The translations under genes were made by a program, and so were the position numbers. Positions 4,031-33,812 of a stretch of 43,044 nt of DNA are shown piece by piece. How positions within the stretch are numbered: position 1 is the stretch's first letter; the number at the start of each line of letters is the position of its first letter. The notes beneath the pieces are model-generated. The model was not told where the DNA came from and did not search any database. It worked only from the letters and a program-made list of their open reading frames with translations. Origin of the DNA: a virus (Duplodnaviria > Heunggongvirae > Uroviricota > Caudoviricetes). The DNA is taken from positions 1 to 43,044 of the IMG/VR virus record IMGVR_UViG_2711768052_000001; one strand, written 5' to 3'.

Positions 4031-4288
4031 ATGATGTACAGCAAATACGATGAGGCGCAGTTCCACTTGAGGCTTACGCACGAGTTGCACGCTAAGATTA
4101 AGCAGCGTGCAAAAATGAATAACAGGTCTATCAATTCCGAAATTGTGGCTACGATGGAAGAATCACTCTCCAAACCATCACCTGTAAGCGGGTATCGTGA
4201 TGAAGAAGAGAGGTTGGCCTCATTAATCTCGGAGCGAGTAAAAGAAGTTGCGGCTGATATCCTTAGAAAAGAAAAAACCCGCGATTAA
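4031..4288 (+). CDS. mnt: Mnt-like ribbon-helix-helix repressor, copy 1 (85 aa)
   Basis: MMYSKYDEAQFHLRLTHELHAKIKQRAKMNNRSINSEIVATMEESLSKPSPVSGYR resembles P22 Mnt (RHH fold, KPSPVTGYR motif); GAGG SD 5 nt upstream of ATG 4031. Confidence 0.7.
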   Translation: MMYSKYDEAQFHLRLTHELHAKIKQRAKMNNRSINSEIVATMEESLSKPSPVSGYRDEEERLASLISERVKEVAADILRKEKTRD

Positions 4289-4296
4289 GCGGGTTT
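4277..4296. terminator. Bidirectional rho-independent terminator between convergent mnt copy 1 and the 73-aa ORF
   Basis: Hairpin acccgc/gcgggt flanked by an A-run upstream and a T-rich stretch downstream; the mnt stop codon lies in the loop. Confidence 0.5.
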
Positions 4297-6040: not shown

Positions 6041-6214
6041 TTACTGGGCATTAGCTCTTTCCTCTCTCAGGCTTTTAGCCAGTCGCTGCACAATCGCAGA
6101 GTTGATAGAAATTCCATCCATTTCAGCAACACGTCTAATCTCCTCCTTCATTCGCGCTGGCAAACGAAGCTGGAAACTTTGACTTTTACGACCTGTGTAA
6201 AGCACATCTTTCAT
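6041..6214 (-). CDS. arc: Arc-like ribbon-helix-helix repressor (57 aa)
   Basis: MKDVLYTGRKSQSFQLRLPARMKEEIRRVAEMDGISINSAIVQRL resembles P22 Arc; GGAGG SD upstream of ATG 6214; divergent from mnt copy 2. Confidence 0.75.
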   Translation of the reverse strand: MKDVLYTGRKSQSFQLRLPARMKEEIRRVAEMDGISINSAIVQRLAKSLREERANAQ

Positions 6215-6325: not shown

Positions 6326-6646
6326 ATGAGCAAGTTCCCTAGTCATGAAATGGATAGGTTCAATATCAGGCTTCCTGCAGGAATGCGGGATGCTATAGCT
6401 GAACGAGCCAAACGTAACGGCAGATCAATGAACTCAGAGATTGTTCAGATACTGGAAGATGCCTTGAATGCAGAAAATACACTCGGGGAAATAGCAGATA
6501 AAATCAACAGCGTCTCGGTTCCGCTAAATGTTGATGCGCTAGTTCAACTTCAAGCCCAGGTTATCGCCATGCAAAAAGAAATACAGGAAAAGTTCAGAGA
6601 GCAGAACGAAAAGTTGAGAGAACTGCTAAACAAAAAAACCACCTGA
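6326..6646 (+). CDS. mnt: Mnt-like ribbon-helix-helix repressor, copy 2 (106 aa)
   Basis: MSKFPSHEMDRFNIRLPAGMRDAIAERAKRNGRSMNSEIVQILEDAL: RHH N-terminus plus C-terminal coiled coil; GAGG SD; divergent from arc as in P22 immI. Confidence 0.7.
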   Translation: MSKFPSHEMDRFNIRLPAGMRDAIAERAKRNGRSMNSEIVQILEDALNAENTLGEIADKINSVSVPLNVDALVQLQAQVIAMQKEIQEKFREQNEKLRELLNKKTT

Positions 6647-6671
6647 CGGTGGGTTAATTTTTGCCTTTTTT
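6637..6671 (+). terminator. Rho-independent terminator after mnt copy 2
   Basis: aaccacc-tgac-ggtgggtt hairpin followed by aatttttgcctttttt. Confidence 0.6.
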
Positions 6672-6930: not shown

Positions 6931-6952
6931 AGCCGGGTCACTCCGGCTTTTT
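6931..6952. terminator. Bidirectional terminator hairpin shared by convergent genes
   Basis: agccgg-gtcact-ccggct followed by ttttt; the stop codon of minus-strand ORF 6938..7303 lies in the loop. Confidence 0.5.
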
Positions 6953-7303
6953 GATATGTCGCTCGCAGAACTCAACAAGCCTGCTCATTAAGTAGCAGTA
7001 AGTCTCGTTGGCTCTTCCTGGTTCAACATCAACGCCGACCCTTGAGCAGATATCGAATGCCATGTGAGCGCACTCATGGGCAATAGTAGATAGTTTGCCA
7101 TTGAACACACCTATCACATGCAAAACACCATTCTCGCTGCTCATTGTATGAGACGCTCCGTTGGCATCCGAGTCCTGCACGTCCACGCCAAGTTTTTGAT
7201 GCAGGCGTTGCCATTCTGGAAAGTCTCTGCAAAACACAATTGTACCGCTCTCAAAGAGCGGAACGAGCATTTTTGGTACGTTTCCAATGTTAACTTTTTT
7301 CAT
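6938..7303 (-). CDS. Hypothetical protein (121 aa) with HExxH motif (possible zinc metallopeptidase-like fold)
   Basis: Contains IAHECAHMAFD (HExxH) and several Cys; ATG start; at the P22 sieA-equivalent position between the ejection genes and immI. Confidence 0.6.
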   Translation of the reverse strand: MKKVNIGNVPKMLVPLFESGTIVFCRDFPEWQRLHQKLGVDVQDSDANGASHTMSSENGVLHVIGVFNGKLSTIAHECAHMAFDICSRVGVDVEPGRANETYCYLMSRLVEFCERHIKKPE

Positions 7304-11714: not shown

Positions 11715-12170
11715 CTATCTCCCGTGATTCAGGAAGTCGATTAGTTCTTCGCGTGTGGCGCTGTAAAAAGTCACGTCATCAACGCCTTTGAAGTATTTCT
11801 TGATGGTTCCTACACGCTTAAGGCCAACCATTGCGCAGTACATCTGACCGTGGCGGAATTTGCGTGCAGCGAACGATGTTACGCACTGAACGGTGGTGTT
11901 AGTCAGAATGTATCTCCAGAACGCCAGCCCGATTTCCTTGCTGAAGCCGCGAATCTCTGGCAGGTACATGGCGTGGCAATCGAATGTCAGCGGCTGAATC
12001 TCCTGATAGTAAACAATGCCGCCAAACTGACCGTGCACGTTAACCTCAAAGTAACGGTATTCAGGCTTGTAGTCGTATCCATCACCGTTGTTGCTTCCGG
12101 CAATAATGTCAGGGTGATTTCCGACTGCTTCGATCAGGTCGATGTTTCGCGTTGGTTTGAACTGAATCAT
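11715..12170 (-). CDS. Head assembly/ejection-associated protein, P22 gp14-like (151 aa)
   Basis: Position between the tail needle and gp7-like genes. Confidence 0.7.
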   Translation of the reverse strand: MIQFKPTRNIDLIEAVGNHPDIIAGSNNGDGYDYKPEYRYFEVNVHGQFGGIVYYQEIQPLTFDCHAMYLPEIRGFSKEIGLAFWRYILTNTTVQCVTSFAARKFRHGQMYCAMVGLKRVGTIKKYFKGVDDVTFYSATREELIDFLNHGR

Positions 12171-13018
12171 TACTGCTCCGCGATTATCTTGATGGTTGTG
12201 GCAGTAAACGCCGCACCATTTGACTGAATGGTTAACGTACTGCCATTTGTGGCAAGAAAGCCGTCTTTATCCACGCTGAAGAACGTAGCTAACAGGATGT
12301 TATCGGTTGTTGTCGCCGCATTACGACTGCTGACCAACGTGTCAGGAACAGAGCCGGAAAAGGTTAGCTGCATTGATCTGTTGGCGGTTCCGCTGGGCCA
12401 CGTCCCGACAATAGACAGCTTGAAGAACAAAGTTTTGTTCTCGTTGAACACAACCATCTTGTTGTTAACGGTGTCGAAGAATGGTGCCAACGAGCCTGAT
12501 GACGGCGTGAGCGTTTTCAGCAGGCTAACAAGGTTGGTCGGCGCTGTCGGAATGGTTACTGATACGCCAGAGTAAACAACCTCTGACTTCTTGCGAGTAG
12601 TGGCATACTCCAGAGCATCAATGCGCGATTCATGGTCTGAAACCTGCGATTCCAGCGACTGAACTCTGGTATCAAGCGACGCAATATCGCTTTCATTCTG
12701 AGCTATTCGTGTTTCATGTTCCTGAAGAGTTGATTCTGCCTGGCTGATTCGCTCCTCATGATTAACAAGCGTTGCTTCCGCAGCAGAAATTCGCTGCTCA
12801 TGGTCAGCGAGAATCACATCCTGCTCATCGTTCCTGACCTGTGCATCATAAGCGCCCTGTCCGGCCTCGTTGGCTTTGTTAGCCACGTTACCAACATCAG
12901 TACCCTGTGCGATAACGTAAAGCAGATACGACTGCGAGAAGATATTGCGTGGAAGGACTGATGTGTCGAGCCGTGTAGCCTGAATGATTACCGGCACATT
13001 GAGATTCGAATCCGCCAT
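12170..13018 (-). CDS. Tail needle protein, P22 gp26-like (282 aa)
   Basis: N-terminal [29 protein letters not shown] like gp26, followed by a long heptad coiled coil. Confidence 0.85.
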
Positions 13019-14436
13019 TACTCAATCCTTATCTGGCAGCCAGACAGAGTGACAGGTGACTTCGTGATAACGCGCAATTTGAAGCCGACATTTTTCCTGA
13101 TGCGCCCTACTTTCTTCCACAAAACGCGTTTGTCGTAAACGAACGGTTCATTCTGCTCAATCATCTGCTCACGACCGTAATTTATGCCGTCAGTGGTTGC
13201 AGAGAGAAAAAGGCGGTCAGCGTACTGAGCAACACCCGTCGATGATTCCACCTCCAGATCAAAGCATCTGGCGTTATCTGCTTTGAAGAGTGGAGTAAAC
13301 AGCAGGTGTTCCTGTTGAAGCCCATACTGACTACTGATATCGAACTGCAATTTCCCTGTCACCGATTCCAGCTTATCGCCGCACGTTATCTGATTGCCTT
13401 CGTAAATGAAGTCGATAGCGCGGTACACATCGTCATACAAGCCTGTTTTCAGTACACACCATTGCGGACCATTGGCGCTTGAAGATGCGTCATACACGAG
13501 AACATGGCGAGGAAGGTGGATAATCAGCAACTCATGAGCATCAAACCGCAGCGATTCCATCACACCATCAGCCAGTTCATCAGCAGTGTAGGAGCGGAGG
13601 ATTTTCTCAATGCTCGCGCTGGCGATTGGTGACACCTGACCGGAGCCGATGATATACACAGACGGCGCACCCGTTGCCGGATTGCTGATGAACGCATAGG
13701 AATCAGCAAACGGCGTTTTGCAGTAAGTTCCGGCAATACCTTTCTGCACCATCAGCGATGGCTGTGCGACATACAAAGCAGCACCAACGGTGGTTGCACC
13801 AGTCAGGGAGAAATATTCAATCGTCGATGAACCAAAGCAGACGATGAAGTCTCGCCATGTGCCGATACCGATGATGCCGTCCGGCTGCGACTCGGCACGA
13901 TATTGTGCGCTGTAGCGGTCAGGGTGCGATTCATCTTCAAGGTCAGTGATAAACCATGAATCAGTACCGTCTTTTGACCACGCATAACGCCCACGTAAGC
14001 GTGTAATGTCGCGAACTGAACCTAACTCGTACTGTGTGAATCCGCTGTCTGTAGGCCAGTTTGAGACGGTTTTAACCGTGCCATCATAGCGATACTCGAC
14101 CAGTTGACCATTAACGCCTACTGCCTGTGATGTCCGACCATGCGCCATTGATACTCTACCACTTCCGGCAACATCACCGACTTCACTTTCGCCCTTATAC
14201 AGCTTGCCGCCACACACGCGATAAACAGCATTCTGCGCCATGTTGTACTCGACGCCCCGCGATACGCCGTTCACGTCGGAACGTTTTGCAATGCCCGGGA
14301 ATGAGCGAAGATATCCGCTACTGTTCAGGATTTCTTTGGGTGTAGCCAGCATATTCACTGGCAGATAGTCGATATAGTCGGCGTTTCTAAAGTCTTTGCC
14401 GACACCTTTCATAAGCGGAAGTTGCTGAATCGGCAT
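13018..14436 (-). CDS. Tail accessory protein, P22 gp10-like (472 aa)
   Basis: Size and position in the P22 order 4-10-26. Confidence 0.85.
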
Positions 14437-14445
14437 TTATTCACC

Positions 14446-14907
14446 TCACGTACTCGGATCATCTTTCTCGATGTAAAACCGATTCCACGTAAACGCGCTT
14501 TTGTTACCACTACCGCGAGGCATGTCATTTCGCCGCTCAAGTGGTGGTATTTTGGTTAAAGCGATGCAAATTGTCTGGTATGCGCTGTCAGCAGCGGTAA
14601 GGAGAGCATCTGACGGCTGAATGACGTTATCCATGCACACTTGAACGGCGAGTTTCAAAGCGACGCCATCATTTGCCCATGCAGGGATACCTGAATCATC
14701 GTCAGGTAACGGCATGATGCCGTTTTCTGTATCAGCAAACTGATATCCAAGTTCGATGCCTTTCGCCTGCCATGCGGCCATCATGTCTTCGAGGTCATTA
14801 ATGGCATCTTCAATTGCCTGTGGGTCAGCATCTGTCAACGTGGCATTGGAATACAGACCTGCTTTTCGTAAAGCCTTTAGAACGAGATCACCCTTCGTTT
14901 TCGCCAT
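14446..14907 (-). CDS. Head completion/tail adaptor protein, P22 gp4-like (153 aa)
   Basis: Size and position downstream of coat. Confidence 0.8.
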   Translation of the reverse strand: MAKTKGDLVLKALRKAGLYSNATLTDADPQAIEDAINDLEDMMAAWQAKGIELGYQFADTENGIMPLPDDDSGIPAWANDGVALKLAVQVCMDNVIQPSDALLTAADSAYQTICIALTKIPPLERRNDMPRGSGNKSAFTWNRFYIEKDDPST

Positions 14908-15076
14908 CTTCTTCCGCCTTAGCCACTTTTTGCTTCGTTGCGGTTTCTTCAGGAGTTTTTACCCAACCTTTTTTCAGGTGAGATTTAACTTCTTCGTCAT
15001 CAACAATGATGTAATCGACAGCAAACTGACCACAGATGATCATGTTTCCAGGCTTATAGAGCATTGTTCGTGCCAT
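14888..15076 (-). CDS. Small hypothetical protein (62 aa) between coat and gp4-like genes
   Basis: ORF 14888..15115 trimmed to Met14 (GGAG SD); the longer N-terminus would run through the coat terminator hairpin. Confidence 0.45.
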   Translation of the reverse strand: MARTMLYKPGNMIICGQFAVDYIIVDDEEVKSHLKKGWVKTPEETATKQKVAKAEEDGENEG

Positions 15077-15087
15077 TGTCTTCTCCC

Positions 15088-15110
15088 AATAAAAATGGGG
15101 CCGAAGCCCC
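15088..15110 (-). terminator. Rho-independent terminator immediately after the coat gene
   Basis: Minus-strand GGGGCUUCGGCCCC hairpin followed by AUUUUUAUU, 8 nt past the coat stop codon. Confidence 0.6.
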
Positions 15111-15117
15111 ACCAAAA

Positions 15118-16371
15118 TTACTGCCCGGCAATAACGATGCCCGTATATTCAGGAACAAGTACAGAGCAACCGTACAGAGTGGTGAAACGAGCAGTGGTTA
15201 CGCCTTTGATGTGGTCGAAGGCGTAAGACATGATCAGCGTAGCGCCCTGCTCGGTGGTTGCTGTCATTACCTGTGGACCCTGACCAGTCGGGAACGCCAG
15301 TTTGCCGTACATCAGTTCAACAGAACCATCAGCCCAGAACAGGTTAGCCGGTGCGGCATTTTTGTTGAGAATGGTAATTGCTGCACCATTTGCCGCGTTA
15401 GCATCAACGTTTGCATATGGACGGCTGGCGACATCCGCGTTGTCAGGCGGCAGAATTTTCGGGGAGATAGTTACTGTCGTTCCGCTAACTGCAAGAACGC
15501 GGAATACCTGCGGCTGCCCGGTGGTGTCTTTGGTGATCTGGTGTACGGAATTCACGCCAGCAATGGTGAACGCATCGCCAACCTGCAAACCAGATGCAGA
15601 TACCGTAATAGTCCCCTGTCGGTTATCCACTGGCATATCATTGTCATCTTTCGCTTCAACCTTGTGCGCAGGTTCAGCCGCCAGCGTCAGGGAAGTTGCT
15701 GTACCCTTCGGGACACGACCAGAAATATCGGTCTTGTAGCTATCGAAGGACGCGACCGGAGGGATCTGCGCTTTTTCGTATGCTGTCAGGGTTGCGCCCT
15801 GAGCATAGGCACGGTGACCAAGCTCGCCAGCAAGGTCTTTGTAGTTGAAGGGGTTCCAGAAAGAGCGACGGTTGATACCCTGTGGTACACCAATCGCCGT
15901 CATGGTGGCATCAATACCTGCCGCACAGTTCCACAAATCACGGCCCTGTGAACCAGTGGTTGAGTCAGCCATTGTGATCACGTTAGTAGCACGCTGCGTG
16001 ACCATGGAAATCAGGTCAGAGTCAATCTGTGCAGCAAGGCGCATACCTGCGGCGCGACCAGCTTCAGTTTTATGTTCCGGGTCACGCATTTCACGCGCAT
16101 CCAGAGTGTACAGAATGTTTTTCGGCTCCTTGAACACAGAAGGAACAAGGCGCTGAACCAGTGCTGTAGGCGTTTTGCCGCTGAGATCGAGGCCTTCTTC
16201 AATGTTCATGTGGTAATGCTGCGGACGATACAGAACATCACCTGCTCGCTGCATTGCGGTATCACCGGGACGGAATTTTTTAGCGTTACGGGAAACTACG
16301 CAGGCGGCCTCAAAGCCTTCAACGTAGTTTTCGAACATGATTTCAAGGTCTTTTGCTAATTGGTTAGGCAT
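15118..16371 (-). CDS. Major capsid (coat) protein, P22 gp5 family (417 aa)
   Basis: Size, position after scaffold, and similarity as recalled to Sf6/CUS-3-type coat proteins. Confidence 0.9.
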   Translation of the reverse strand: MPNQLAKDLEIMFENYVEGFEAACVVSRNAKKFRPGDTAMQRAGDVLYRPQHYHMNIEEGLDLSGKTPTALVQRLVPSVFKEPKNILYTLDAREMRDPEHKTEAGRAAGMRLAAQIDSDLISMVTQRATNVITMADSTTGSQGRDLWNCAAGIDATMTAIGVPQGINRRSFWNPFNYKDLAGELGHRAYAQGATLTAYEKAQIPPVASFDSYKTDISGRVPKGTATSLTLAAEPAHKVEAKDDNDMPVDNRQGTITVSASGLQVGDAFTIAGVNSVHQITKDTTGQPQVFRVLAVSGTTVTISPKILPPDNADVASRPYANVDANAANGAAITILNKNAAPANLFWADGSVELMYGKLAFPTGQGPQVMTATTEQGATLIMSYAFDHIKGVTTARFTTLYGCSVLVPEYTGIVIAGQ

Positions 16372-16389: not shown

Positions 16390-17283
16390 TTATTTTTTTG
16401 CCTTTTTAGCGGCGAAATACGGCGTCCAGTCACCAGTTTCCAGCGCCTTGGCTTTCAGTTTGTCTAGGTTATTGATTACTGCGCCGTTGCTCCCCTTAAC
16501 TGTCGGGGTTGTGGCTGCCGTGGTTTTTGCTTTTGGCATGATTCTGGCCTTCGATTCGATACGTTCCAGCAGACGACCAATTGCTACGGGGTTGGTAGCT
16601 TCTGCCAGTTGCTTGCGCAGTTCAGCGTTGCGGCCGAGCGCCAGAACAACGATTTCCGGCTTCTCTGACTCAAACAGGATCGCGTTTTGTGTCTCGATGG
16701 GAATTTCCTCGAGTACGGCCTGCTCAGCTTCCTGATAGCCAGGAACTTTGAGAGCCTTAACACGTTGCTGATATTTGGATAATCGCTCTTGATAGGCAGC
16801 CTGAAGCTCATGCTCCTTCTGCTTGCGAGCCATCTCCTGTTGCTGGTACTTGCCGTTATCCTCTGCCCACTTAGCCATGCGTTGCTGGTAGATTTCTTCA
16901 TCGAAACCGATGTCCTCATCATCCAGTTTTGGCATTCGCGGTGGTTGAGTGATTACCGGCTGCTGCTCGACGGGTTTCTGAGACTGACGCATCAGCTCTT
17001 TCAGCTCACGGTCTTTCTCTTTAATCGTCTTGCGCAGGTGTTTTACCAGTCCATGCTCTGCGTCATCTTCGCTGGTTGGCGAATCCAGCTTTTCGTCACC
17101 AAAGTAGAAATCCTGTTCTGATTCGTCGTCATCAGTTTCAGTAGCTTCCTCTGCATCATTGCCGGAGGACTCACTGCCATCTTCTGTTTCGACTTCTTCA
17201 GCCAGTTCTACATCATCAGGAATCTGCTCTGACGCGTCGGTTTCTATTTCAACTTCTGGTGTGTTTTCTGCCATCTGGTCCAT
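16390..17283 (-). CDS. Scaffolding protein, P22 gp8-like (297 aa)
   Basis: Highly charged, acidic N-terminus, helical; between portal and coat. Confidence 0.85.
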   Translation of the reverse strand: MDQMAENTPEVEIETDASEQIPDDVELAEEVETEDGSESSGNDAEEATETDDDESEQDFYFGDEKLDSPTSEDDAEHGLVKHLRKTIKEKDRELKELMRQSQKPVEQQPVITQPPRMPKLDDEDIGFDEEIYQQRMAKWAEDNGKYQQQEMARKQKEHELQAAYQERLSKYQQRVKALKVPGYQEAEQAVLEEIPIETQNAILFESEKPEIVVLALGRNAELRKQLAEATNPVAIGRLLERIESKARIMPKAKTTAATTPTVKGSNGAVINNLDKLKAKALETGDWTPYFAAKKAKK

Positions 17284-17373: not shown

Positions 17374-19572
17374 TTACTGCTGTGGTTGTTGCTGAGTTGA
17401 TTTTTGCAGGATGCTGCTGATGTCCATGCGCTGCGCATGGCCATGTGCCTGACTTTTCAGGACAAGCTCTGCATCAGCACGGGCATTGTCTCCTTGCTGT
17501 TGCTGGAACTGTCCGAGCAGCTTCAGAGCCTCGCGGATATCAGATTTCTGCTGACTATCGGCAGATGCGAGTATTTTCACAACATTTGCCGCTGCAACCT
17601 GAGCATCAGTCTGTGCCTGGAATGCTTTAACCTGAATGGCTGCCTGTTCGTTCTGCGCTTTCTGCAATTCAGCCTGACCAGCAAGAAGCTGACCTTGCGC
17701 TGCAACCATAGCCGGATCTGGCTGACTGGCCTGTTGTTGTTTCGCCTGTTCAACCATCTGCTGTTCTTCAGGCGTTCTCGGCTTGATAACGCCAGACAGA
17801 AGCAACTGATTGCGGTTGTATTCTTTCAGGTCGTCCATCCCTTCTCCGTCCATATTGTCGAGAATCATCGACGATACAAGGTCGTGCTTCTGCGTTCCTG
17901 GTGGGATAAGTGCCAGCATGGAAAGTAACGACTTAACCGTTGCATCACGGCGAGTAGCGAACGACTGACCGACATCGACAGTCACTTCATAGTTACCCTG
18001 CGAAAGGTCGTTAAGCGCGATAACCTGCCCTGTCTGACGGTCAACCACTTCACCAGTCATCAGCGCCACGTCATCGCTGCCGTCCTCATTAACGATACGC
18101 ATCGGCGTATCACTGCCATAGACCTCACGCGCCATAGAAAGCCACACTACGCCAGCGCGGCGCATGGATTTAGCCATGTTGTCCATGTAGATATAGGACT
18201 GCGTGTCCATCCGGTTAAAGATGCTATCAACGGTATCGGTAGCGACGTTGCTCGGCATGTTCTCAAGCTGCGACGCACCTGTAATTTGCTGAATAGCCGT
18301 TCCGGTGTACTGTAATAGCCCGGCAAGAGCAGGAGGCATTTGTGTCGGAGGTGTATAACTGCTGACCTGAGCCTGCGCAGTAATATCTCCGTTTTTGTTT
18401 TTCAGACTGACCATCGGCAGGAACGCCGGGCGCTTTTTGTTGCGCTCCGCCCAATGAGTGGCGAGAGGACCAGGAATCATGTCAACATCAACTACAGGAA
18501 TACCATCACCGCCAGCCTGAGTGGCGTTATCTGCAATCATGGAAACCATCAGGTTCTCAAGACGCTGTGCATCCATCGCTTTTGCTGCGTGGCCTTCGAT
18601 TCGCTCCTGATTATCAACAAATGAACGACGCCCATATACCGGGATGAGAGGAATATGTTCGCCCGGAATACGCTTCGGTTCTTCCAGCCATTCAGCGCCA
18701 GACAGAAGGCCGCAATAAACGCGGCGTTTCTTCACCGTTCGCTCACCAATCAGTTCGAATGCGCCATCGGTTAGCTCGTCGACAACATCTTTTATTTGCT
18801 CTTCATCATAGATTGCCGTTTCTCCGCTGACAGGATTGCGCCACGCCGTGAGCTTCACCTTCTCTATGCGAACTTCGTAGTAGCGTCCAACATAGATGGC
18901 ATCAGGCGTTGACCAGTCATACTGAGTACCAGTGTCATCACGAGAAAGACTTGCCGCGATGGAGTCAGGGTATTCAGCCTCGAACGCTTTAGGCGTCATG
19001 GAGAACATTTCCATAGCCCACATAGCATCAGAACGGTCATATTGCTTGCTGTCCTGATCGAAGAAGACGCATGTCGCTGGGTCGTAAACAGGAAGAAGGC
19101 TGATGCGTCGCTGCTCGTTACTCGGATCCATTTCATCTTCGTAATCGGCACACATGCGAAAACAACCGAATCCGCCCGTTACAGCATCATCAAATGCGTT
19201 ATCACACGCTTCGCCACCGGATGTTTCCTGATAGTCAGCGCGGAATTTGCCGTTCATCTTTTCGGCTAACGCTTCCGATGCCTTATCGTCCTTCGGCCTG
19301 AATTTAACGCTGATGCGATTCTGTCGATACTCGCCAATGATGCGATCACATTCACGGGCAATCTTATTCAGTTCAAAACGCGGATAATGCTCAAACCTGC
19401 CTTCATCAAATGAGTAACCAGCGTTTGTGCTGCCTTCCCACTGTGCGCCGGACACCCTGACGAAACGTTGAGCCTCAATAATCTGCTCACGCATATCCTG
19501 CGTTGCTGACCAGGCATTATCAAAGTTGCACAGCACCTTGCGATGCCAGTCAGTCATCTTTTTTTCTGCCAT
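17374..19572 (-). CDS. Portal protein, P22 gp1-like (732 aa)
   Basis: Size (P22 portal 725 aa), position after large terminase, Gln-rich C-terminal barrel-like tail. Confidence 0.9.
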   Translation of the reverse strand: MAEKKMTDWHRKVLCNFDNAWSATQDMREQIIEAQRFVRVSGAQWEGSTNAGYSFDEGRFEHYPRFELNKIARECDRIIGEYRQNRISVKFRPKDDKASEALAEKMNGKFRADYQETSGGEACDNAFDDAVTGGFGCFRMCADYEDEMDPSNEQRRISLLPVYDPATCVFFDQDSKQYDRSDAMWAMEMFSMTPKAFEAEYPDSIAASLSRDDTGTQYDWSTPDAIYVGRYYEVRIEKVKLTAWRNPVSGETAIYDEEQIKDVVDELTDGAFELIGERTVKKRRVYCGLLSGAEWLEEPKRIPGEHIPLIPVYGRRSFVDNQERIEGHAAKAMDAQRLENLMVSMIADNATQAGGDGIPVVDVDMIPGPLATHWAERNKKRPAFLPMVSLKNKNGDITAQAQVSSYTPPTQMPPALAGLLQYTGTAIQQITGASQLENMPSNVATDTVDSIFNRMDTQSYIYMDNMAKSMRRAGVVWLSMAREVYGSDTPMRIVNEDGSDDVALMTGEVVDRQTGQVIALNDLSQGNYEVTVDVGQSFATRRDATVKSLLSMLALIPPGTQKHDLVSSMILDNMDGEGMDDLKEYNRNQLLLSGVIKPRTPEEQQMVEQAKQQQASQPDPAMVAAQGQLLAGQAELQKAQNEQAAIQVKAFQAQTDAQVAAANVVKILASADSQQKSDIREALKLLGQFQQQQGDNARADAELVLKSQAHGHAQRMDISSILQKSTQQQPQQ

Positions 19573-19573
19573 A

Positions 19574-20989
19574 TCAACCTACACCACAAGGAATTGAGTA
19601 ACTGGAATAGTCGGGTTGCGCAGCCGACTCCGGGCAATGCATACACATCATCAGCGCATCAGCCAGGTTAGGAGATGGAATACCGAGCTTCTGCTTCATT
19701 TCGACCTTAGTCATAAGCTCCAGCTTCCCGTTGTTATTGAATTTGCGCTGAATCTGCGTCAATTCTGCAAACAGCTTCTCAAGCATCTTCTCGCCTATCG
19801 CTTCTTTGTCGAAGCTCAGCATGTCGTCGGGGTCTGCATACTCACCGTTGACAACCGCGCGATATGTCAGATACAGCCTGTCAGCCAGCGCGTAATAGAA
19901 TTGTGCTCGCTTATTGCGGAACACATCGCCAATAGTGCGAACGTTGTCACCCTGTACGACTTCATCAGCCCATGCTCCGGCCTGATATGGTGCATCTTCA
20001 TCAAATGGCGATTCGCTGCCCTTGAACATCGTAGCGGTGATTTTCTTACCGGAGAATGCTTCCGTTGTCTGTCTGCGTAGCCCTGCACCGACACCATCAC
20101 CATCCCACAAGTAGTGGTCAGCACCGTCTTCAATCGCCAGCGAAGTAGCCCAGTCAGCCCCCTCGTTGATGTCCATCAGCAGACCTTCGGCAATGCGCTT
20201 AACTACCGAACCGTGACGCGATGCATAACCTTTAGCATCCGGCCCTGTATCTGACGGGTCATGTGCAGAAACAACAGCGCCTTTCGCTTTCCATCCGAGT
20301 TTCTTGTGCGCATCGGTTGCAGCTTCAAGCCATTCTCGTTTGATGATTGCCATATCACTTGCGCTTACTGGCTCACCAAGCCAGATGTGACGATACAGTG
20401 TCGGATTTCTGCGTTTGCACTCTTCCATCTCCAGACGGAGAACTTCAGGAAAATGCGGGTTGTCGGTGTAGTTCACCGTCAGCAGACAAATATCATCGGG
20501 AGGATTTACGACGAATCGCTGATAGGTATCGTCGAGTATGTTCTTCGGGTTAAAGCTCACCCATATTTCGGAAAATGGCTTGCGGATGGTTGGTATCAGG
20601 ATATCCCATGATTCCTTCGTTACCGCTTCCGCTTCCTCCACCCAGCAGATATCAATGCCTTCGAGCGATTTAATCTTCGTCGGGTTGTTTTTGATGCCGT
20701 AGAACATGAACTCAGCATTCGTTCCGAGATGACGAATCATTGAACGCTGAATTTCAAACTCAGCCGAATACCCTTCCCGCTCTATGGTGTCTTCAAGCAA
20801 CCGAATTACCGAATCGCTGATACTGTTTTGCAGCTCACGAGCGCAAAGTATGCGCACAGGCTGCCGACGCGCCGCTTCAACAAGCAGCCTCGCAATTGCC
20901 CATGACTTACCGCTACCTCGACCGCCTTTGGCGACTTTGTAGCGATGCGCCTCAATGAACGGTTCAAAGATAGGATTAATCGAGGTCAT
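19574..20989 (-). CDS. Terminase large subunit (471 aa), Sf6 gp2-like
   Basis: Walker A KGGRGSGKS near the N-terminus; sequence recalled as near-identical to Sf6 large terminase. Confidence 0.95.
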   Translation of the reverse strand: MTSINPIFEPFIEAHRYKVAKGGRGSGKSWAIARLLVEAARRQPVRILCARELQNSISDSVIRLLEDTIEREGYSAEFEIQRSMIRHLGTNAEFMFYGIKNNPTKIKSLEGIDICWVEEAEAVTKESWDILIPTIRKPFSEIWVSFNPKNILDDTYQRFVVNPPDDICLLTVNYTDNPHFPEVLRLEMEECKRRNPTLYRHIWLGEPVSASDMAIIKREWLEAATDAHKKLGWKAKGAVVSAHDPSDTGPDAKGYASRHGSVVKRIAEGLLMDINEGADWATSLAIEDGADHYLWDGDGVGAGLRRQTTEAFSGKKITATMFKGSESPFDEDAPYQAGAWADEVVQGDNVRTIGDVFRNKRAQFYYALADRLYLTYRAVVNGEYADPDDMLSFDKEAIGEKMLEKLFAELTQIQRKFNNNGKLELMTKVEMKQKLGIPSPNLADALMMCMHCPESAAQPDYSSYSIPCGVG

Positions 20990-21414
20990 TTTCCGAATAG
21001 AGTGCTCATCGGTGATGTTTCAATCTGGATTGCGCCGCCGTCCTTACCGACAAGCTCGTTAGTTACCTTGTCGCCATACTTACGGGGATTCATTCGGGCC
21101 AGCGCCCATTTGCGGGTATCAACGCGAAGTCTTGCCTTTGCCACCTCAGCAGCATCTGGAATCGCATTGTCAGCAATTTCGAATATCTCTTCGAAAATAG
21201 AATCAGCTCGTGCCTCAGTTGCCTTCGCGTACTTGTCGCGAAAATCCTCATGCTTTGCCAACCAGCGGAAAACAGTGGACTTATCCGGCATACCAGGACG
21301 CTTACATACTTTCAGCAAACTTTCGCCAGAAGAAAGCAACGAGCAGATATCGTCGGCCACCTCCGGCATATAATCAGAGGGGCGACCAGCTTTTGGTTCA
21401 GTCGCCATATTCAT
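20986..21414 (-). CDS. Terminase small subunit (about 140 aa), Sf6 gp1-like
   Basis: MATEPKAGRPSDYMPEVADDICSLLSSGESLLKVCKRPGMPDKSTVFRWL recalled as Sf6 gp1; the true start may be the Met at 21408. Confidence 0.9.
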   Translation of the reverse strand: MNMATEPKAGRPSDYMPEVADDICSLLSSGESLLKVCKRPGMPDKSTVFRWLAKHEDFRDKYAKATEARADSIFEEIFEIADNAIPDAAEVAKARLRVDTRKWALARMNPRKYGDKVTNELVGKDGGAIQIETSPMSTLFGK

Positions 21415-23171: not shown

Positions 23172-23197
23172 AATAAAAAGCCCCGCGAATGCGAGGC
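23172..23197 (-). terminator. Rho-independent terminator between the lysis cassette and downstream late genes
   Basis: Minus-strand GCCUCGC-AUUC-GCGGGGC hairpin followed by UUUUUAUU. Confidence 0.55.
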
Positions 23198-23371: not shown

Positions 23372-23839
23372 TCATCGAAGGCATTGCGTCCTGATGTATT
23401 CCTGAAGCGTTCTCAGTGCTGTTTGGTCGCGGATAATTCCGTCCCGGATATCGAGAACGTTTCGTCCAGCAACTGGAGAGAGTTCGACGGTGGCATCATT
23501 GCCCATGCCGGAGGCGCTGGAGGTTTTGGCTGAGGATGGCACAGGGCATTTTCCTTTGACGAGCACCCTGCCACCATTATCAAGCTTGCGCCGAAGAGCA
23601 TCATTTTCAGCTTTCGCATCAGCTAACTCCTTCGTGTATTTAGCATCGAGTGCATCAGCATCACGCTGGCGCTGTTGCATGTCAGTAATGGTGGCGTTCG
23701 CCAGCTTCAGCTCACTGACTTTTTTATCGCGCTGCTCTTTGTAGGTAATGGCGTTATCACGGTAATGATTAACAGCCCATGACAGGCAGACGATGATGCA
23801 GATAACCAGAGCTGAGATAATCGCGGTTACTCTGCTCAT
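23372..23839 (-). CDS. Rz: Spanin, inner-membrane subunit Rz (155 aa)
   Basis: N-terminal TM segment and coiled coil; strong similarity to lambda Rz; directly downstream of R. Confidence 0.9.
23413..23619 (-). CDS. Rz1: Spanin, outer-membrane lipoprotein subunit Rz1, embedded in the +1 frame of Rz
   Basis: [21 protein letters not shown] lipobox followed by a proline-rich stretch [11 protein letters not shown], like lambda Rz1. Confidence 0.8.
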
Positions 23840-24312
23840 GCCTCAATCTCTCTGACCGTTCCGCCAGCTTCTTTGAATTTTGCAATCAGGCTGTCAGCCT
23901 TATGCTCGAACTGACCATAACCAGCGCCCGGCAGTGAAGCCCAGATATTGCTGCAACGGTCGATAGCCTGACGAATATCACCGCGATCAATCATTGGTAA
24001 AGCGCCACGCTCTTTAATCTGTTGCAGTGCCACAGCGTCCTGGCTTTTCGGAGAGAAGTCTTTCAGGCCAAGCTGCTTACGATAGGCATCCCACCAACGG
24101 GAAAGAAGCTGGTAACGTCCGGCTGCTGTTGATTTGAGTTTGGGGTTTAGCGTGACAAGTTTGCGAGGGTGATCGGAGTAATCAGTGAATAGCTCTCCGC
24201 CAACAATGACGTCATAACCATGATTTCTGGTTTTCTGACGTCCGTTATCAGTCCCCTCTGACCACGCCAGCATATCGAGGAACGCCTTACGTTGATTATT
24301 GATTTCCACCAT
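23836..24312 (-). CDS. R: Endolysin R, lytic transglycosylase (158 aa)
   Basis: [39 protein letters not shown]... recalled as near-identical to lambda R. Confidence 0.97.
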
Positions 24313-24619
24313 CTTCTACTCCGGCTTTTTTAGCAGCGAAGCGTTTGATAAGCGAACCAATCGAGTCAGTACCGATGTAGCCGATGAACACGCTCGTTAT
24401 ATAAGCGAGATTACTACTTAGTCCGGCGAAGTCGAGAAGGTCACGAATGAACCAGGCGATAATGGCGCACATCGTTGCGTCGATTACTGTTTTTGTAAAC
24501 GCACCGCCATTATATCTGCCGCGAAGGTACGCCATTGCAAACGCAAGGATTGCCCCGATGCCTTGTTCCTTTGCCGCGAGAATGGCGGCTAACAGGTCAT
24601 GTTTTTCTGGCATCTTCAT
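24296..24619 (-). CDS. S: Holin S with dual-start motif (107 aa)
   Basis: [39 protein letters not shown]... recalled as near-identical to lambda S, including the MKM S107/S105 starts. Confidence 0.97.
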
Positions 24620-24942
24620 GTCTTACCCCCAATAAGGGGATTTGCTCTATTTAATTAGGAATAAGGTCGATTACTGATAGAACAAATCCAGGCTACTGTG
24701 TTTAGTAATCAGATTTGTTCGTGACCGATATGCACGGGCAAAACGGCAGGAGGTTGTTAGCGCGACCTACTGCCACCCGCTTTCACGAAGGTCATGTGTA
24801 GAAGGCCGCAGCGTAACTATTACTAATGAATTCAGGACAGACAGTGGCTACGGCTCAGTTTGGGTTGTGCTGTTGCTGGGCGGCGATGACGCCTGTACGC
24901 ATTTGGTGATCCGGTTCTGCTTCCGGCATTCGCTTAATTCAG

Positions 24943-25029
24943 CACAACGGAAAGAGCATTTATGGCTCGCATCGCGGGAAAAAGCCCACGGTAGAGAGTC
25001 GAACTCTACAAATACTCTTACCTGTTGTG
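24943..25029 (-). other. Inverted-repeat-flanked structured element B in the late leader, containing a tRNA T-arm-like hairpin
   Basis: Arms cacaacggaaagagca / tactcttacctgttgtg; interior has gtagag-agtcgaa-ctctac, whose complement reads as a TTCGACT T-loop; no full cloverleaf found. Confidence 0.35.
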
Positions 25030-25151
25030 CGCTCCGTTTCGTGGAGCTAACGGCGACGCTAGTGCCGGTCTATGCGTCGCACCCTTGAGGGATTTACTAA
25101 GGCGACATGCCCGTTGTTACCCACTCAATTGGACCCTCCCCGTCGCCATCT

Positions 25152-25177
25152 GGGTCTAGTCAGGAATCGAACCTGCC
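25152..25177 (-). other. tRNA-Arg-like 3' fragment (T-arm plus partial acceptor stem), probable tRNA remnant
   Basis: Minus strand GGCAGGTTCGATTCCTGACTAGACCC; 16 nt match the argW-type T-arm GCAGGTTCGATTCCTG; no D or anticodon arm and no CCA found. Confidence 0.35.
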
Positions 25178-25377
25178 GAGGGTACATTTGAATGGGCGCC
25201 CGTTATTAATCACACCGGGCCAGTGCGCCGAATTTGGTAGCGGGGAGTCGGAAGACCCCGTGATTTTGGTTTCTTAGGCCGCCATCAACATCAAATCATC
25301 GTTTGCATTTATCTTTGTGGTCAGTTTCTAAAAACCCGCAAAGTCGCCAACTCTGACGAAAACTATCGTTGTGCTGC

Positions 25378-25445
25378 CACAACGATAAGAGCACTCGGTG
25401 CATTTAAGCCAAGCCCCATAAGGGAGAATGCTCTTACCTGTTGTG
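25378..25445 (-). other. Inverted-repeat-flanked structured element A in the late leader (paralogue of element B)
   Basis: Arms cacaacgataagagca / tgctcttacctgttgtg; an adjacent perfect palindrome atcgttgtg-ctgc-cacaacgat. Confidence 0.35.
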
Positions 25446-25452
25446 CAAACGC

Positions 25453-25483
25453 AAAAAGCCCCGAGCTATTAACTCAGGGCTTT
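25453..25483 (-). terminator. tR'-like rho-independent terminator about 30-60 nt downstream of the pR' start
   Basis: Minus-strand GCCCUGAG-UUAAUAG-CUCGGGGC hairpin (one G-U pair) followed by UUUUUGCGUUU. Confidence 0.6.
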
Positions 25484-25516
25484 ATTTAACGAGTGCATTT
25501 ATCCATCGTTGAGTCA

Positions 25517-25545
25517 AATTTACCCAACTTTATTCAATAAGTCAA
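25517..25545 (-). promoter_or_regulatory. Late promoter pR' (-35 TTGACT, 17-bp spacer, -10 TAAATT) with lambda-type qut region
   Basis: Minus-strand ATATTGACTTATTGAATAAAGTTGGGTAAATTTGACTCAACGATGG, recalled as nearly identical to lambda pR'/qut through about +8. Confidence 0.8.
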
Positions 25546-25587: not shown

Positions 25588-26211
25588 CTAACGTGTGACC
25601 GCATTCAAAATGTTGTCTGCGATTGACTCTTCTTTGTGGCATTGCACCACCAGAGCGTCATACAGCGGCTTAACAGTGCGTGACCAGGTGGGTTGAGTAA
25701 GGTTTGGGATTAGCATCGTTACAGCGCGATATGCGGCGCTTGCTGGCATTCTTGAATAGCCGACACCTTTGCATCTTCCGCACTCTTTCTCAACAACTCT
25801 TCCCCACTGCTCTGTTTTGGCTATATCAACCGCACGGCCTGTACCGTGGCAATCTCTGCACCTTGCTCCCGGCGTCGCGGCACTACGGCAATAATCCGCA
25901 TAAGCGAATGTTGCGAGCACTTGCAGTACCTTTGCCTTAGTATTTCCTTCAAGCTTTGCCACGCCACGGTATTTCCCCGATACCTTGTGTGCAAATTGCA
26001 TCAGATAGTTGATAGCCTTTTGTTTGTCGTTCTGGCTGAGTTCGTGCTTACCACAGAATGCAGCCATTCCGAATCCGGCTTGTGATTGCGCCATCCCCAT
26101 AGCAGCCATCACATCAGTACCGGAAAGAGAGTCAGAAGCCGTAGCCCGTGGTGAGTCGCTCATCATCTGGCTTTTTGGCGAATGAAATTTAGCTACGCTT
26201 TCGAGTCTCAT
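25588..26211 (-). CDS. Q: Late antiterminator Q (207 aa)
   Basis: [31 protein letters not shown]...[12 protein letters not shown]...CGRCKG recalled as near-identical to lambda Q. Confidence 0.97.
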
Positions 26212-33784: not shown

Positions 33785-33812
33785 CCCGACCTTAGCGTCG
33801 GGTTTTCTTTTT
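33785..33812 (+). terminator. Rho-independent terminator downstream of cI
   Basis: cccgac-cttagc-gtcggg hairpin followed by ttttcttttt. Confidence 0.65.

What the first reader, a model, noticed from the sequence alone, without database searches (positions are those of the whole stretch)
15088..15110. Intrinsic terminator immediately after the major capsid gene
A strong GC hairpin plus U-run sits 8 nt after the coat stop within the late operon, a likely attenuator setting the coat-to-downstream expression ratio. The annotated N-terminus of the next small ORF would run through it, which is why that ORF was trimmed.
Basis: seen in the sequence. Interest (0 to 1): 0.2.

Follow-up and report, generated by a model that had tools for sequence, protein, structure and literature searches.

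The report
Known terminator hairpin after coat gene
A real, strongly conserved terminator-type RNA hairpin follows the major capsid gene of this P22-like prophage, but the same element is already annotated in P22, Sf6, phage L, HK97 and lambda, and its role has not been tested in anything I could find.

Summary
On the minus (coding) strand the coat gene (15118-16371) ends in TAA. It is followed by UGGGGC-UUCG-GCCCCA (15111-15096), UUUUUAUU (15095-15088), the SD GGGAG (15087-15083) and the ATG (15076) of a 62-aa orf69-like gene.

The site scores d=28.7 on the d'Aubenton-Carafa scale; no site in 100 shuffles reached that. Among 96 distinct coat-gene junctions from P22-fold coat genes, 86.5% have a terminator within 85 nt of the coat stop. 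The figure is 0.7% for other long-ORF stops and 0% for random windows. Stem sequences differ between lineages and show compensatory changes. Within the close family, the stem and U-run vary 5-7 times less than synonymous sites.

The element is not new. GenBank records for Sf6 ('t coat'), P22, phage L and HK97 annotate it, lambda has the same layout after gene E, and the phage L genome paper says its role is unknown.

The 'attenuator' reading is only partly supported. This operon is driven by a Q protein 99% identical to lambda Q, which makes RNA polymerase termination-deficient, and essential genes lie downstream. The most likely role is to define and stabilise a 3' end that is mostly read through, enriching scaffold and coat message. 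The small ORF starts at the ATG in all public annotations, so nothing annotated runs through the hairpin.

The parts
15118..16371 (-). Major capsid (coat) gene, 417 aa, CUS-3/Sf101 type; stop TAA at 15120-15118
   Evidence: ORF list; Pfam PF11651 P22_CoatProtein, E 7e-75; 98% DNA identity to Sf101 and 94.6% to CUS-3, both annotated as coat protein
15112..15117 (-). Spacer UUUUGG between the stop codon and the core stem. It is variable in relatives. GG 15113-15112 can form G-U pairs with UU 15095-15094.
   Evidence: Sequence; minor-allele frequency 0.077, as high as synonymous sites
15096..15111 (-). Terminator hairpin: 5' arm UGGGGC (15111-15106), UUCG tetraloop (15105-15102), 3' arm GCCCCA (15101-15096); dG -11.2 kcal/mol
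   Evidence: Stem minor-allele frequency is 0.012 against 0.084 at coat third positions. The basal T-A pair flips to A-T in diverged relatives. Compensatory changes appear across lineages.
15088..15095 (-). U-run UUUUUAUU directly 3' of the stem (tail score 4.29)
   Evidence: minor-allele frequency 0.015
15083..15087 (-). Shine-Dalgarno GGGAG of the small ORF, 6 nt upstream of the ATG
   Evidence: Read directly from the sequence
14888..15076 (-). Small ORF, 62 aa, homologue of P22 orf69. Its true start is ATG 15076. The mechanical ORF from TTG 15115 (75 aa) is an artefact.
   Evidence: Public annotations; phrog_1175, E 3.5e-28, profile position 1 aligned to residue 2; P22 orf69 hits the same PHROG
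14446..14907 (-). gp4 head-completion (tail accessory) gene, the first of the low-copy essential genes that depend on read-through
   Evidence: Pfam PF11650 P22_Tail-4, E 7e-41
25588..26211 (-). Late antiterminator Q (P22 gene 23 equivalent), 207 aa, 205/207 identical to lambda Q
   Evidence: Pfam PF03589; BLASTP against lambda Q
25458..25545 (-). Late promoter region PR' (TTGACT 25545-25540, TAAATT 25522-25517) with a lambda-type Q-loading region, followed by a tR'-like terminator (25480-25458, d=19.5). This is the start of the ~24-kb late operon that contains the finding.
   Evidence: Alignment to lambda 44499-44699, nearly identical through about the first 113 columns; terminator score

Best explanation
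This is the 't-coat' element of P22-like and lambdoid phages. It is an intrinsic-terminator-type RNA hairpin placed directly after the last high-copy gene (scaffold, then coat) of the late operon. The hairpin (UGGGGC-UUCG-GCCCCA) plus U-run would terminate ordinary RNA polymerase. Late transcription here starts at a lambda-type PR' and is carried out by Q-lambda-loaded, terminator-resistant polymerase. It must also continue into gp4, gp10, the needle, the ejection proteins and the tailspike. So most late transcription reads through. The conserved job is most likely to create and protect an RNA 3' end at this point. Such ends would arise in two ways: termination of the minority of polymerases that are not Q-loaded or escape antitermination, and 3'-to-5' trimming of cleaved read-through transcripts back to the stable hairpin. 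Hairpin-ended RNAs resist exonucleases, so message for the procapsid genes, above all coat, outlasts and outnumbers message for the low-copy downstream genes. Shown here: the structure, its orientation, its statistical excess, its positional conservation, purifying selection on stem and U-run, and the Q-lambda context. Inferred: the 3' ends themselves, the split between termination and decay protection, and the effect on protein ratios.
For: The structure is canonical and well above chance. A terminator with d>0 lies within 85 nt of the coat stop in 83 of 96 distinct junctions (86.5%). The figure is 0.7% at 412 other long-ORF stops, 0% in 461 random windows and 13.5% on the antisense strand. 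A hairpin of dG <= -9 is present at 93.8% of coat junctions against 3-5% of controls. There are 34 distinct hairpins with unrelated stems (GGGGC, GGGAGC, GGGCGC/GUGCCC, GGGGAGCC, GGCGGGG and others), and compensatory changes are seen. Within 110 distinct close relatives, stem and U-run are 5-7 times less variable than the adjacent spacer and synonymous sites. Earlier curators annotated the same element in P22, Sf6, phage L and HK97, and lambda has the same layout after gene E. Read-through is needed: the simple sigma-70 scan gave no promoter-like hit on the coding strand between the terminator and the essential downstream genes, and P22 is described as having a single late promoter. Q is 99% identical to lambda Q and PR'/qut is lambda-like. 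Q-loaded complexes are termination-deficient, which favours a mostly post-transcriptional or minority-termination mode. Several environmental relatives, and to a degree lambda, keep a strong hairpin with a poor or absent U-run, so the hairpin is the most widely kept feature.
Against: No 3'-end, RNA-abundance or half-life data were available for this or any P22-like phage in the searchable literature. The U-run is as conserved as the stem in enterobacterial relatives. An exonuclease barrier would not need a U-run, so real termination of some polymerase population probably matters. The U-run also lies just upstream of the SD, which could constrain it for translation. The 96 junctions are not phylogenetically independent. 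From memory and unverified: classical work on lambda attributed late-gene expression ratios mainly to translation initiation, not mRNA dosage.
Confidence: 0.5

Rival explanations
1. True transcriptional attenuator. A substantial fraction, tens of percent, of late Q-dependent transcription terminates here, and that alone sets the coat-to-downstream ratio.
For: The site has canonical terminator features with a conserved U-run. It sits at the boundary between high-copy and low-copy genes. The phage L authors proposed the same idea. Leaky terminators are used to balance expression in other phages (ONT-cappable-seq study and its T7 reference).
Against: Q here is 99% identical to lambda Q, and Q-lambda-loaded RNAP is termination-deficient and processive over tens of thousands of nucleotides. 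The same operon contains other equally strong terminators (25480, 23197, 6652 and 4293) that must also be read through to reach essential genes such as the tailspike. Some relatives keep the hairpin without a U-run.
Confidence: 0.2
2. Insulator against non-antiterminated transcription. The terminator acts only on polymerases lacking Q, for example spurious or internal promoters in the lysogen or early in infection. It keeps downstream head-completion, ejection and tailspike genes silent and is irrelevant during Q-driven late transcription.
For: This explains a fully canonical terminator inside a Q operon. The phage L authors proposed it as their second possibility. Internal TSSs exist in the capsid gene cluster of the P22-like prophage BTP1. 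Other module boundaries of this late operon also carry strong terminators.
Against: It does not explain why the position directly after the capsid gene is the one conserved (86.5% against 0.7% at other gene ends). The same position is kept in phages with unrelated downstream genes and in relatives classified in other genera (IME_EC2, Murrayvirus; Sortsne, genus not checked), where the terminators are even stronger. Nor does it explain hairpins without U-runs.
Confidence: 0.17
3. Translation-context element. The hairpin isolates the SD and AUG of the small ORF from the coat coding sequence, or blocks ribosome run-on, and has no role in RNA 3'-end formation.
For: The SD begins immediately after the U-run, 8 nt from the stem. 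The 41-nt layout of stop, hairpin, U-rich stretch, SD and ATG recurs in lambda E-FI.
Against: The downstream gene differs between lineages (orf69-like, Sf6 gene 6/phrog_3251, a 176-aa ORF in IME_EC2), and the hairpin-to-gene distance varies from about 10 to about 90 nt, yet the hairpin stays next to the coat stop. The U-run and orientation specificity point to termination.
Confidence: 0.06
4. Mosaic-junction by-product or neutral hitch-hiker. The hairpin marks a recombination boundary between the procapsid module and the head-completion module and is not itself selected.
For: Nucleotide similarity to phages with related coats but different downstream genes ends at the coat stop. The same GGGGC-UUCG-GCCCC core occurs behind coat genes that share only about 20-30% protein identity.
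Against: There is purifying selection on the stem relative to the adjacent spacer. Compensatory changes occur. Many unrelated stem sequences occupy the same position. Stem-disrupting variants are singletons (L022, L320).
Confidence: 0.04

Closest known systems
Sf6 't coat' (GenBank AF547987, regulatory/terminator 6147-6173: 'stem-loop that is likely to be a transcription terminator; t coat')
   Same: Same position, about 5-6 nt after the coat stop and before a small ORF and the gp4 homologue. Same GGGGC/GCCCC stem, 4-nt loop and U-run. Same P22-like late operon.
   Different: The loop is UUAC rather than UUCG. The coat gene is a different sequence type (20% protein identity). The downstream small gene is unrelated (phrog_3251 against phrog_1175). 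That element is also a prediction only.
P22 stem-loop after gene 5 (BK000583 stem_loop 6102-6119; AF527608 'RNA stem-loop') and the phage L / epsilon34 equivalents
   Same: Syntenic: coat, hairpin, orf69-family gene, gene 4. Epsilon34 and L carry the identical GGGGC-UUCG-GCCCC core. The phage L paper discusses it as an intra-operon terminator of unknown role.
   Different: The P22-type coat shares only 29% identity. The P22 loop is UGCG. The basal U-A pair of the window's stem is absent.
Lambda E-FI intergenic stem-loop and the HK97 'putative terminator' after gp5
   Same: A GC hairpin sits directly after the major capsid gene inside a Q-antiterminated late operon. Lambda has the same 41-nt gap, a 6-bp stem, a UUCG loop and then SD-ATG. 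HK97's is annotated as a terminator. The window even uses lambda's own Q and PR'.
   Different: The capsid genes are unrelated in sequence (HK97-fold but different families) and the stem sequences are unrelated. Lambda's U-run is weak (d=9.7).
Leaky terminators after capsid genes in other phages (T7 T-phi after gene 10, f1/M13 terminator after gene VIII, phiX174 intragenomic terminators), recalled from general knowledge and not tested here
   Same: The logic is the same: a terminator or hairpin after the most abundantly needed structural gene, with obligatory read-through to downstream genes. Inefficient terminators used to balance expression are cited for T7 in the ONT-cappable-seq study.
   Different: Those systems use phage RNAP or unmodified host RNAP, for which partial termination is measured. 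Here the polymerase is Q-modified and expected to ignore the signal.

Membership tests
Intrinsic (Rho-independent) terminator | GC-rich stem-loop of about 5-12 bp with a short loop | tested here: met
   6-bp stem (8 with G-U pairs), UUCG loop, dG -11.2 kcal/mol
Intrinsic (Rho-independent) terminator | U-rich tract immediately 3' of the stem, on the transcribed strand only | tested here: met
   UUUUUAUU at 15095-15088, tail score 4.29, d=28.7. The opposite strand has no U-run. In relatives, 13.5% of antisense sites score d>0 and none reach d>=20.
Intrinsic (Rho-independent) terminator | Excess over chance | tested here: met
   No site with d>=28.7 in 100 dinucleotide shuffles; 7 sites with d>0 observed against 0.17 expected
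Intrinsic (Rho-independent) terminator | RNA 3' ends or termination activity demonstrated in vivo or in vitro | not testable with these tools
   No transcript data; literature searches found no measurement for P22-like phages
Post-capsid-gene stem-loop of lambdoid phages ('t coat') | Lies directly after the major capsid gene stop, in the sense orientation | tested here: met
   The core stem starts 6-8 nt after the TAA of a PF11651 coat gene
Post-capsid-gene stem-loop of lambdoid phages ('t coat') | Conserved at the syntenic position in relatives, with the structure kept despite sequence change | tested here: met
   83 of 96 distinct junctions; 34 distinct hairpins; controls at 0-0.7%; compensatory changes; annotated in the P22, Sf6, L and HK97 records
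Post-capsid-gene stem-loop of lambdoid phages ('t coat') | Embedded in a Q-antiterminated late operon with essential genes downstream | tested here: met
   Q is 99% identical to lambda Q, with a lambda-type PR'/qut and a tR'-like terminator. gp4, gp10, the needle and the tailspike lie downstream on the same strand.
Regulated attenuator (riboswitch, leader-peptide or antiterminator-structure type) | Alternative antiterminator structure, ligand-binding or leader element upstream of the terminator | tested here: not met
   The hairpin starts 6 nt after a coding region. Folding shows only the single hairpin plus weak flanking pairs. There are no Rfam matches in the window.
Dispersed repeat (REP-like element) | Multiple copies in the genome | tested here: not met
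   A single match in the window even with 2 mismatches
RNase III processing site (T7 R-site type) | Long, roughly 20-bp double-stranded stem (requirement recalled from general knowledge) | tested here: not met
   The stem is only 6-8 bp

The most novel reading that the evidence does not exclude
The conserved feature may be the hairpin rather than termination. On this reading, a capsid-gene 3' RNA-stability element is maintained across P22-fold, and possibly most, tailed-phage capsid genes. It would work post-transcriptionally even in operons whose polymerase (Q-loaded) cannot terminate, which would explain why 'useless' terminators persist inside antiterminated operons. Some environmental relatives keep strong GC hairpins with no U-run, which fits this reading.
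Probability: 0.2. Interest if true: 0.45.

Novelty: already known. Interest (0 to 1): 0.15.

Why it matters
For this window it matters little. The hairpin is an unannotated copy of an element that curators of P22, Sf6, L, HK97 and lambda have already flagged. It confirms the gene start of the orf69-like ORF.

The wider question is modest but real. Canonical terminators persist inside operons transcribed by terminator-proof, Q-loaded polymerase, and the phage L authors state their roles 'are not known'. The comparison made here (86.5% of P22-fold coat genes followed by a terminator against under 1% of other gene ends, with purifying selection on stem and U-run) shows the element is selected rather than incidental.

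The question can be tested cheaply. The element is intergenic, so stem, compensatory and U-run mutants can be made without touching any protein.

Tried and rejected
1. Rfam scan of the whole window at gathering threshold gave no families. An E-value scan of the late leader gave only sub-threshold tmRNA-like hits.

2. ARAGORN found no tRNAs.

3. A genome-contig scan with a 6-sequence coat alignment failed for lack of a conserved stretch. A 2-sequence alignment returned only 7 loci.

4. Viral-contig scans returned mostly near-identical relatives, so the 363 loci collapse to 96 distinct junctions and 34 hairpins.

5. Literature searches for experimental 3'-end or mRNA-level data on P22-like late operons found none. 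The BTP1 transcriptome paper discusses the late operon only in general terms. The phiCbK and Pseudomonas-phage transcriptome papers were not informative for this point.

6. Rejected readings:
- Dispersed repeat: the motif is single-copy.
- RNase III site: the stem is too short.
- Regulated attenuator or riboswitch: no alternative structure and no Rfam hit.
- Bidirectional terminator: no U-run on the plus strand.
- Coding sequence of an N-terminally extended small ORF: the public annotations, the SD position, the PHROG profile start and variable upstream spacing in relatives all argue against it.

7. The MAFFT/RNAalifold covariation test is weak, because the hairpins are not truly alignable and were selected as hairpins. 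The non-circular evidence is the position-specific enrichment against controls and the within-family constraint.

8. A direct-repeat search of the late leader failed on a strand-format error and was not repeated.

Full report
WHAT IS THERE

The window is a P22-like (Lederbergvirus) prophage of the CUS-3/Sf101 type, with an integrase at its left end (141-1334, +). The late genes run on the minus strand:
- Q antiterminator, 25588-26211
- holin, 24296-24619
- Rz, 23372-23839
- small terminase, 20986-21414
- large terminase, 19574-20989
- portal, 17374-19572
- scaffold, 16390-17283
- coat, 15118-16371
- a 62-aa ORF, 14888-15076
- gp4, 14446-14907
- gp10, 13018-14436
- needle, 12170-13018
- tailspike, 1427-3898

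These assignments rest. The coat-to-gp4 segment is 98% identical to phage Sf101 and 94.6% to CUS-3. It occurs in 431 of 5426 complete E. coli genomes.

THE OBSERVATION

Read on the minus strand, the sequence after the coat gene is:

...CAG TAA UUUUGG UGGGGC UUCG GCCCCA UUUUUAUU GGGAG AAGACA AUG...

- Stop codon: 15120-15118.
- Stem arms: 15111-15106 and 15101-15096.
- Loop: 15105-15102.
- U-run: 15095-15088.
- SD: 15087-15083.
- ATG: 15076.

RNAfold puts the hairpin in both the MFE and the centroid structure. The plus strand has the hairpin but no U-run.

With a d'Aubenton-Carafa-type score the site has dG -11.2, tail score 4.29 and d=28.7. That is third best of only seven sites with d>0 on this strand. 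In 100 dinucleotide-preserving shuffles the mean was 0.17 such sites, and none reached 28.7. The motif is single-copy in the window.

THE ORF STATEMENT

The mechanical ORF begins at TTG 15115 and runs through the hairpin. The Sf101, CUS-3 and E. coli RefSeq records all start the gene at the ATG, 41 nt after the coat stop. Three further points support the ATG start:
- That ATG has a good SD.
- The orf69-family profile (phrog_1175) aligns from residue 2.
- In diverged relatives the protein is conserved from the ATG, while the distance from stop to hairpin changes.

Trimming was therefore right, but no annotated N-terminus crosses the hairpin.

IS IT SELECTED?

I collected 363 loci with P22-fold coat genes: CUS-3, P22, Sf6, APSE-1, IME10 and IME_EC2 types, Xenorhabdus prophages, and an environmental group around a Hyphomicrobium MAG. 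They collapse to 96 distinct junctions and 34 distinct hairpins.

A terminator with d>0 lies within 85 nt of the coat stop in 83 of 96 junctions (86.5%), usually 5-9 nt after the stop. Controls in the same loci:
- other long-ORF stops: 0.7% (n=412)
- random windows: 0% (n=461)
- the antisense strand at the same place: 13.5%, with none at d>=20

A hairpin of dG <= -9 is present at 93.8% of coat junctions, against 3-5% of controls.

Stems differ between lineages: GGGGC/GCCCC, GGGAGC/GCUCCC, GGGCGC/GUGCCC, GGGGAGCC/GGCUCCUC, GGCGGGG/CCCCGCC and many more. An RNAalifold consensus of 19 distinct hairpins has compensatory changes in 3 of 5 pairs. That test is weak and partly circular.

Among 110 distinct close relatives, mean minor-allele frequencies are as follows:
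- stem: 0.012
- U-run: 0.015
- spacer just upstream: 0.077
- SD region: 0.046
- coat third codon positions: 0.084

The basal U-A pair flips to A-U in the diverged lineages. Stem-breaking variants are singletons. The element is under purifying selection.

ALREADY KNOWN

- The Sf6 record annotates 'terminator ... stem-loop that is likely to be a transcription terminator; t coat' at the same place.
- The two P22 records annotate an 'RNA stem-loop' and a 'stem_loop, putative; similar in location to stem-loops in phage HK97 and phage lambda'.
- The phage L record annotates terminators there.
- HK97 has a 'putative terminator' after gp5.
- I checked lambda. The E stop is followed after 3 nt by UGGCCC-UUCG-GGGCCA, a weak U-rich tail, an SD and the FI ATG, in a 41-nt gap like the window's.
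[quoted passage not shown] It says such intra-operon terminators' 'roles are not known'. It offers two possibilities: partial termination, or stopping transcription that lacks antitermination.

HOW IT MOST LIKELY WORKS

The context is decisive. The window's Q protein is 205/207 identical to lambda Q. The PR'/Q-loading region is nearly identical to lambda's, and is followed by a tR'-like terminator at 25480-25458. Q-lambda-loaded RNAP is 'pausing-deficient, termination-deficient'. [quoted passage not shown]

The late operon also contains other strong terminators that must be passed to reach essential genes (23197, 6652 and 4293). No promoter-like site lies on the coding strand between the hairpin and gp4/gp10. 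So most late transcription must read through, and a strong attenuator is unlikely.

Yet both the hairpin and the U-run are conserved, specifically after the last high-copy gene. My best reading (confidence about 0.5) is a 3'-end-forming and stabilising element. Polymerases that are not Q-loaded, or that escape antitermination, terminate here. Cleaved read-through transcripts are trimmed back to the stable UUCG hairpin, which blocks 3' exonucleases. Scaffold and coat message is thereby enriched over downstream message.

The structure, selection and context are shown. The 3' ends, the termination-versus-decay split and the effect on protein ratios are inferred.

Some environmental relatives, and lambda to a degree, keep the hairpin with little or no U-run. 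That favours an RNA-level role. The conserved U-run in enterobacterial relatives indicates that real termination of some polymerase population also matters.

RIVALS

- A true attenuator of Q-driven transcription (0.2).
- An insulator against non-antiterminated transcription in the lysogen (0.17). The BTP1 prophage has internal TSSs in its capsid cluster. This rival does not explain the capsid-specific position.
- A translation-context element for the small ORF (0.06). The downstream gene and its distance vary, while the hairpin stays by the coat stop.
- A neutral mosaic-junction by-product (0.04). The constraint data contradict it.

VERDICT

The element is an unannotated copy of an already described feature of P22-like and lambdoid phages, so novelty is 'already known' and interest is low (0.15). 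One open point remains, and it is cheaply testable: what canonical terminators do inside Q-antiterminated operons.

Noticed in passing
window 23180-23197 (-), 6639-6652 (-), 4278-4293 (-): Three more strong intrinsic terminators (d = 25.5, 33.5 and 30.4) lie inside the same Q-driven late operon. One follows the lysis cassette (Rz). Two lie in the antirepressor 'moron' region, one of them just upstream of the tailspike gene. Together with t-coat they partition the operon at module boundaries.
   Followed up: partly
window 24620-25457 (-): An ORF-poor leader of about 820 nt lies between the tR'-like terminator and the holin gene. It contains T-arm-like sequences and a repeated GCACAACAGGTAAGAG motif (about 25445 and about 25033). 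P22-like phages such as BTP1 carry tRNA genes at this spot. ARAGORN finds none here, and Rfam gives only sub-threshold tmRNA-like hits. These may be decayed tRNA genes.
   Followed up: partly
window 14888-15076 (-); L004 1799-2008; L008 1448-2008: The 62-aa ORF after the terminator belongs to phrog_1175 with P22 orf69. The same ~50-aa module forms the N-terminus of the 186-aa epsilon34 gp6 / phage L Orf186 (phrog_3769). Its function is unknown. RefSeq labels the Sf101 copy 'virion structural protein', and I found no evidence for that label.
   Followed up: partly
L341, L345, L348, L363 and others (environmental relatives of the Hyphomicrobium-MAG coat, L095): Several metagenomic relatives have very stable GC hairpins (dG -9 to -19) 6-16 nt after the coat stop, but no U-run (d<0). 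The hairpin is therefore conserved more widely than the terminator tail.
   Followed up: partly
L369 (lambda 7160-7202): The lambda E-FI intergenic region has the same 41-nt length and the same order of parts (stop, short spacer, 6-bp GC stem with UUCG loop, U-rich stretch, SD, ATG) as the window's coat-orf69 junction, although the capsid genes are unrelated in sequence.
   Followed up: yes
L117 (P22-type viral contig), L022 and L320 (CUS-3-type): These are singleton variants. In L117 the hairpin is followed by AAAAAA instead of UUUUUU. L022 and L320 each carry one stem-disrupting substitution. They could be sequencing or assembly errors or rare defective alleles.
   Followed up: no
window 4278-4293, 6932-6947, 33785-33802: Hairpins at these sites score as terminator-like on both strands, so they are possible bidirectional terminators. 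At 33785-33802 and 6932-6947 the plus strand scores d>0 (15.6, 8.3) and the minus strand is below zero (-2.6, -18.7). At 4278-4293 the minus strand scores 30.4 and the plus strand -5.2.
   Followed up: no
window 14756-15226 (+) and 15064-15951 (+): Long plus-strand ORFs (156 and 295 aa) overlap the finding. They lie antisense to the coat, orf69-like and gp4 genes and are almost certainly artefacts of the mechanical ORF listing.
   Followed up: no
window 1427-3898 (-): The 823-aa tailspike has a P22-type head-binding domain (residues 1-113) but no Pfam match over the remaining ~700 residues. Its receptor-binding part is therefore of an uncharacterised or divergent type.
   Followed up: no
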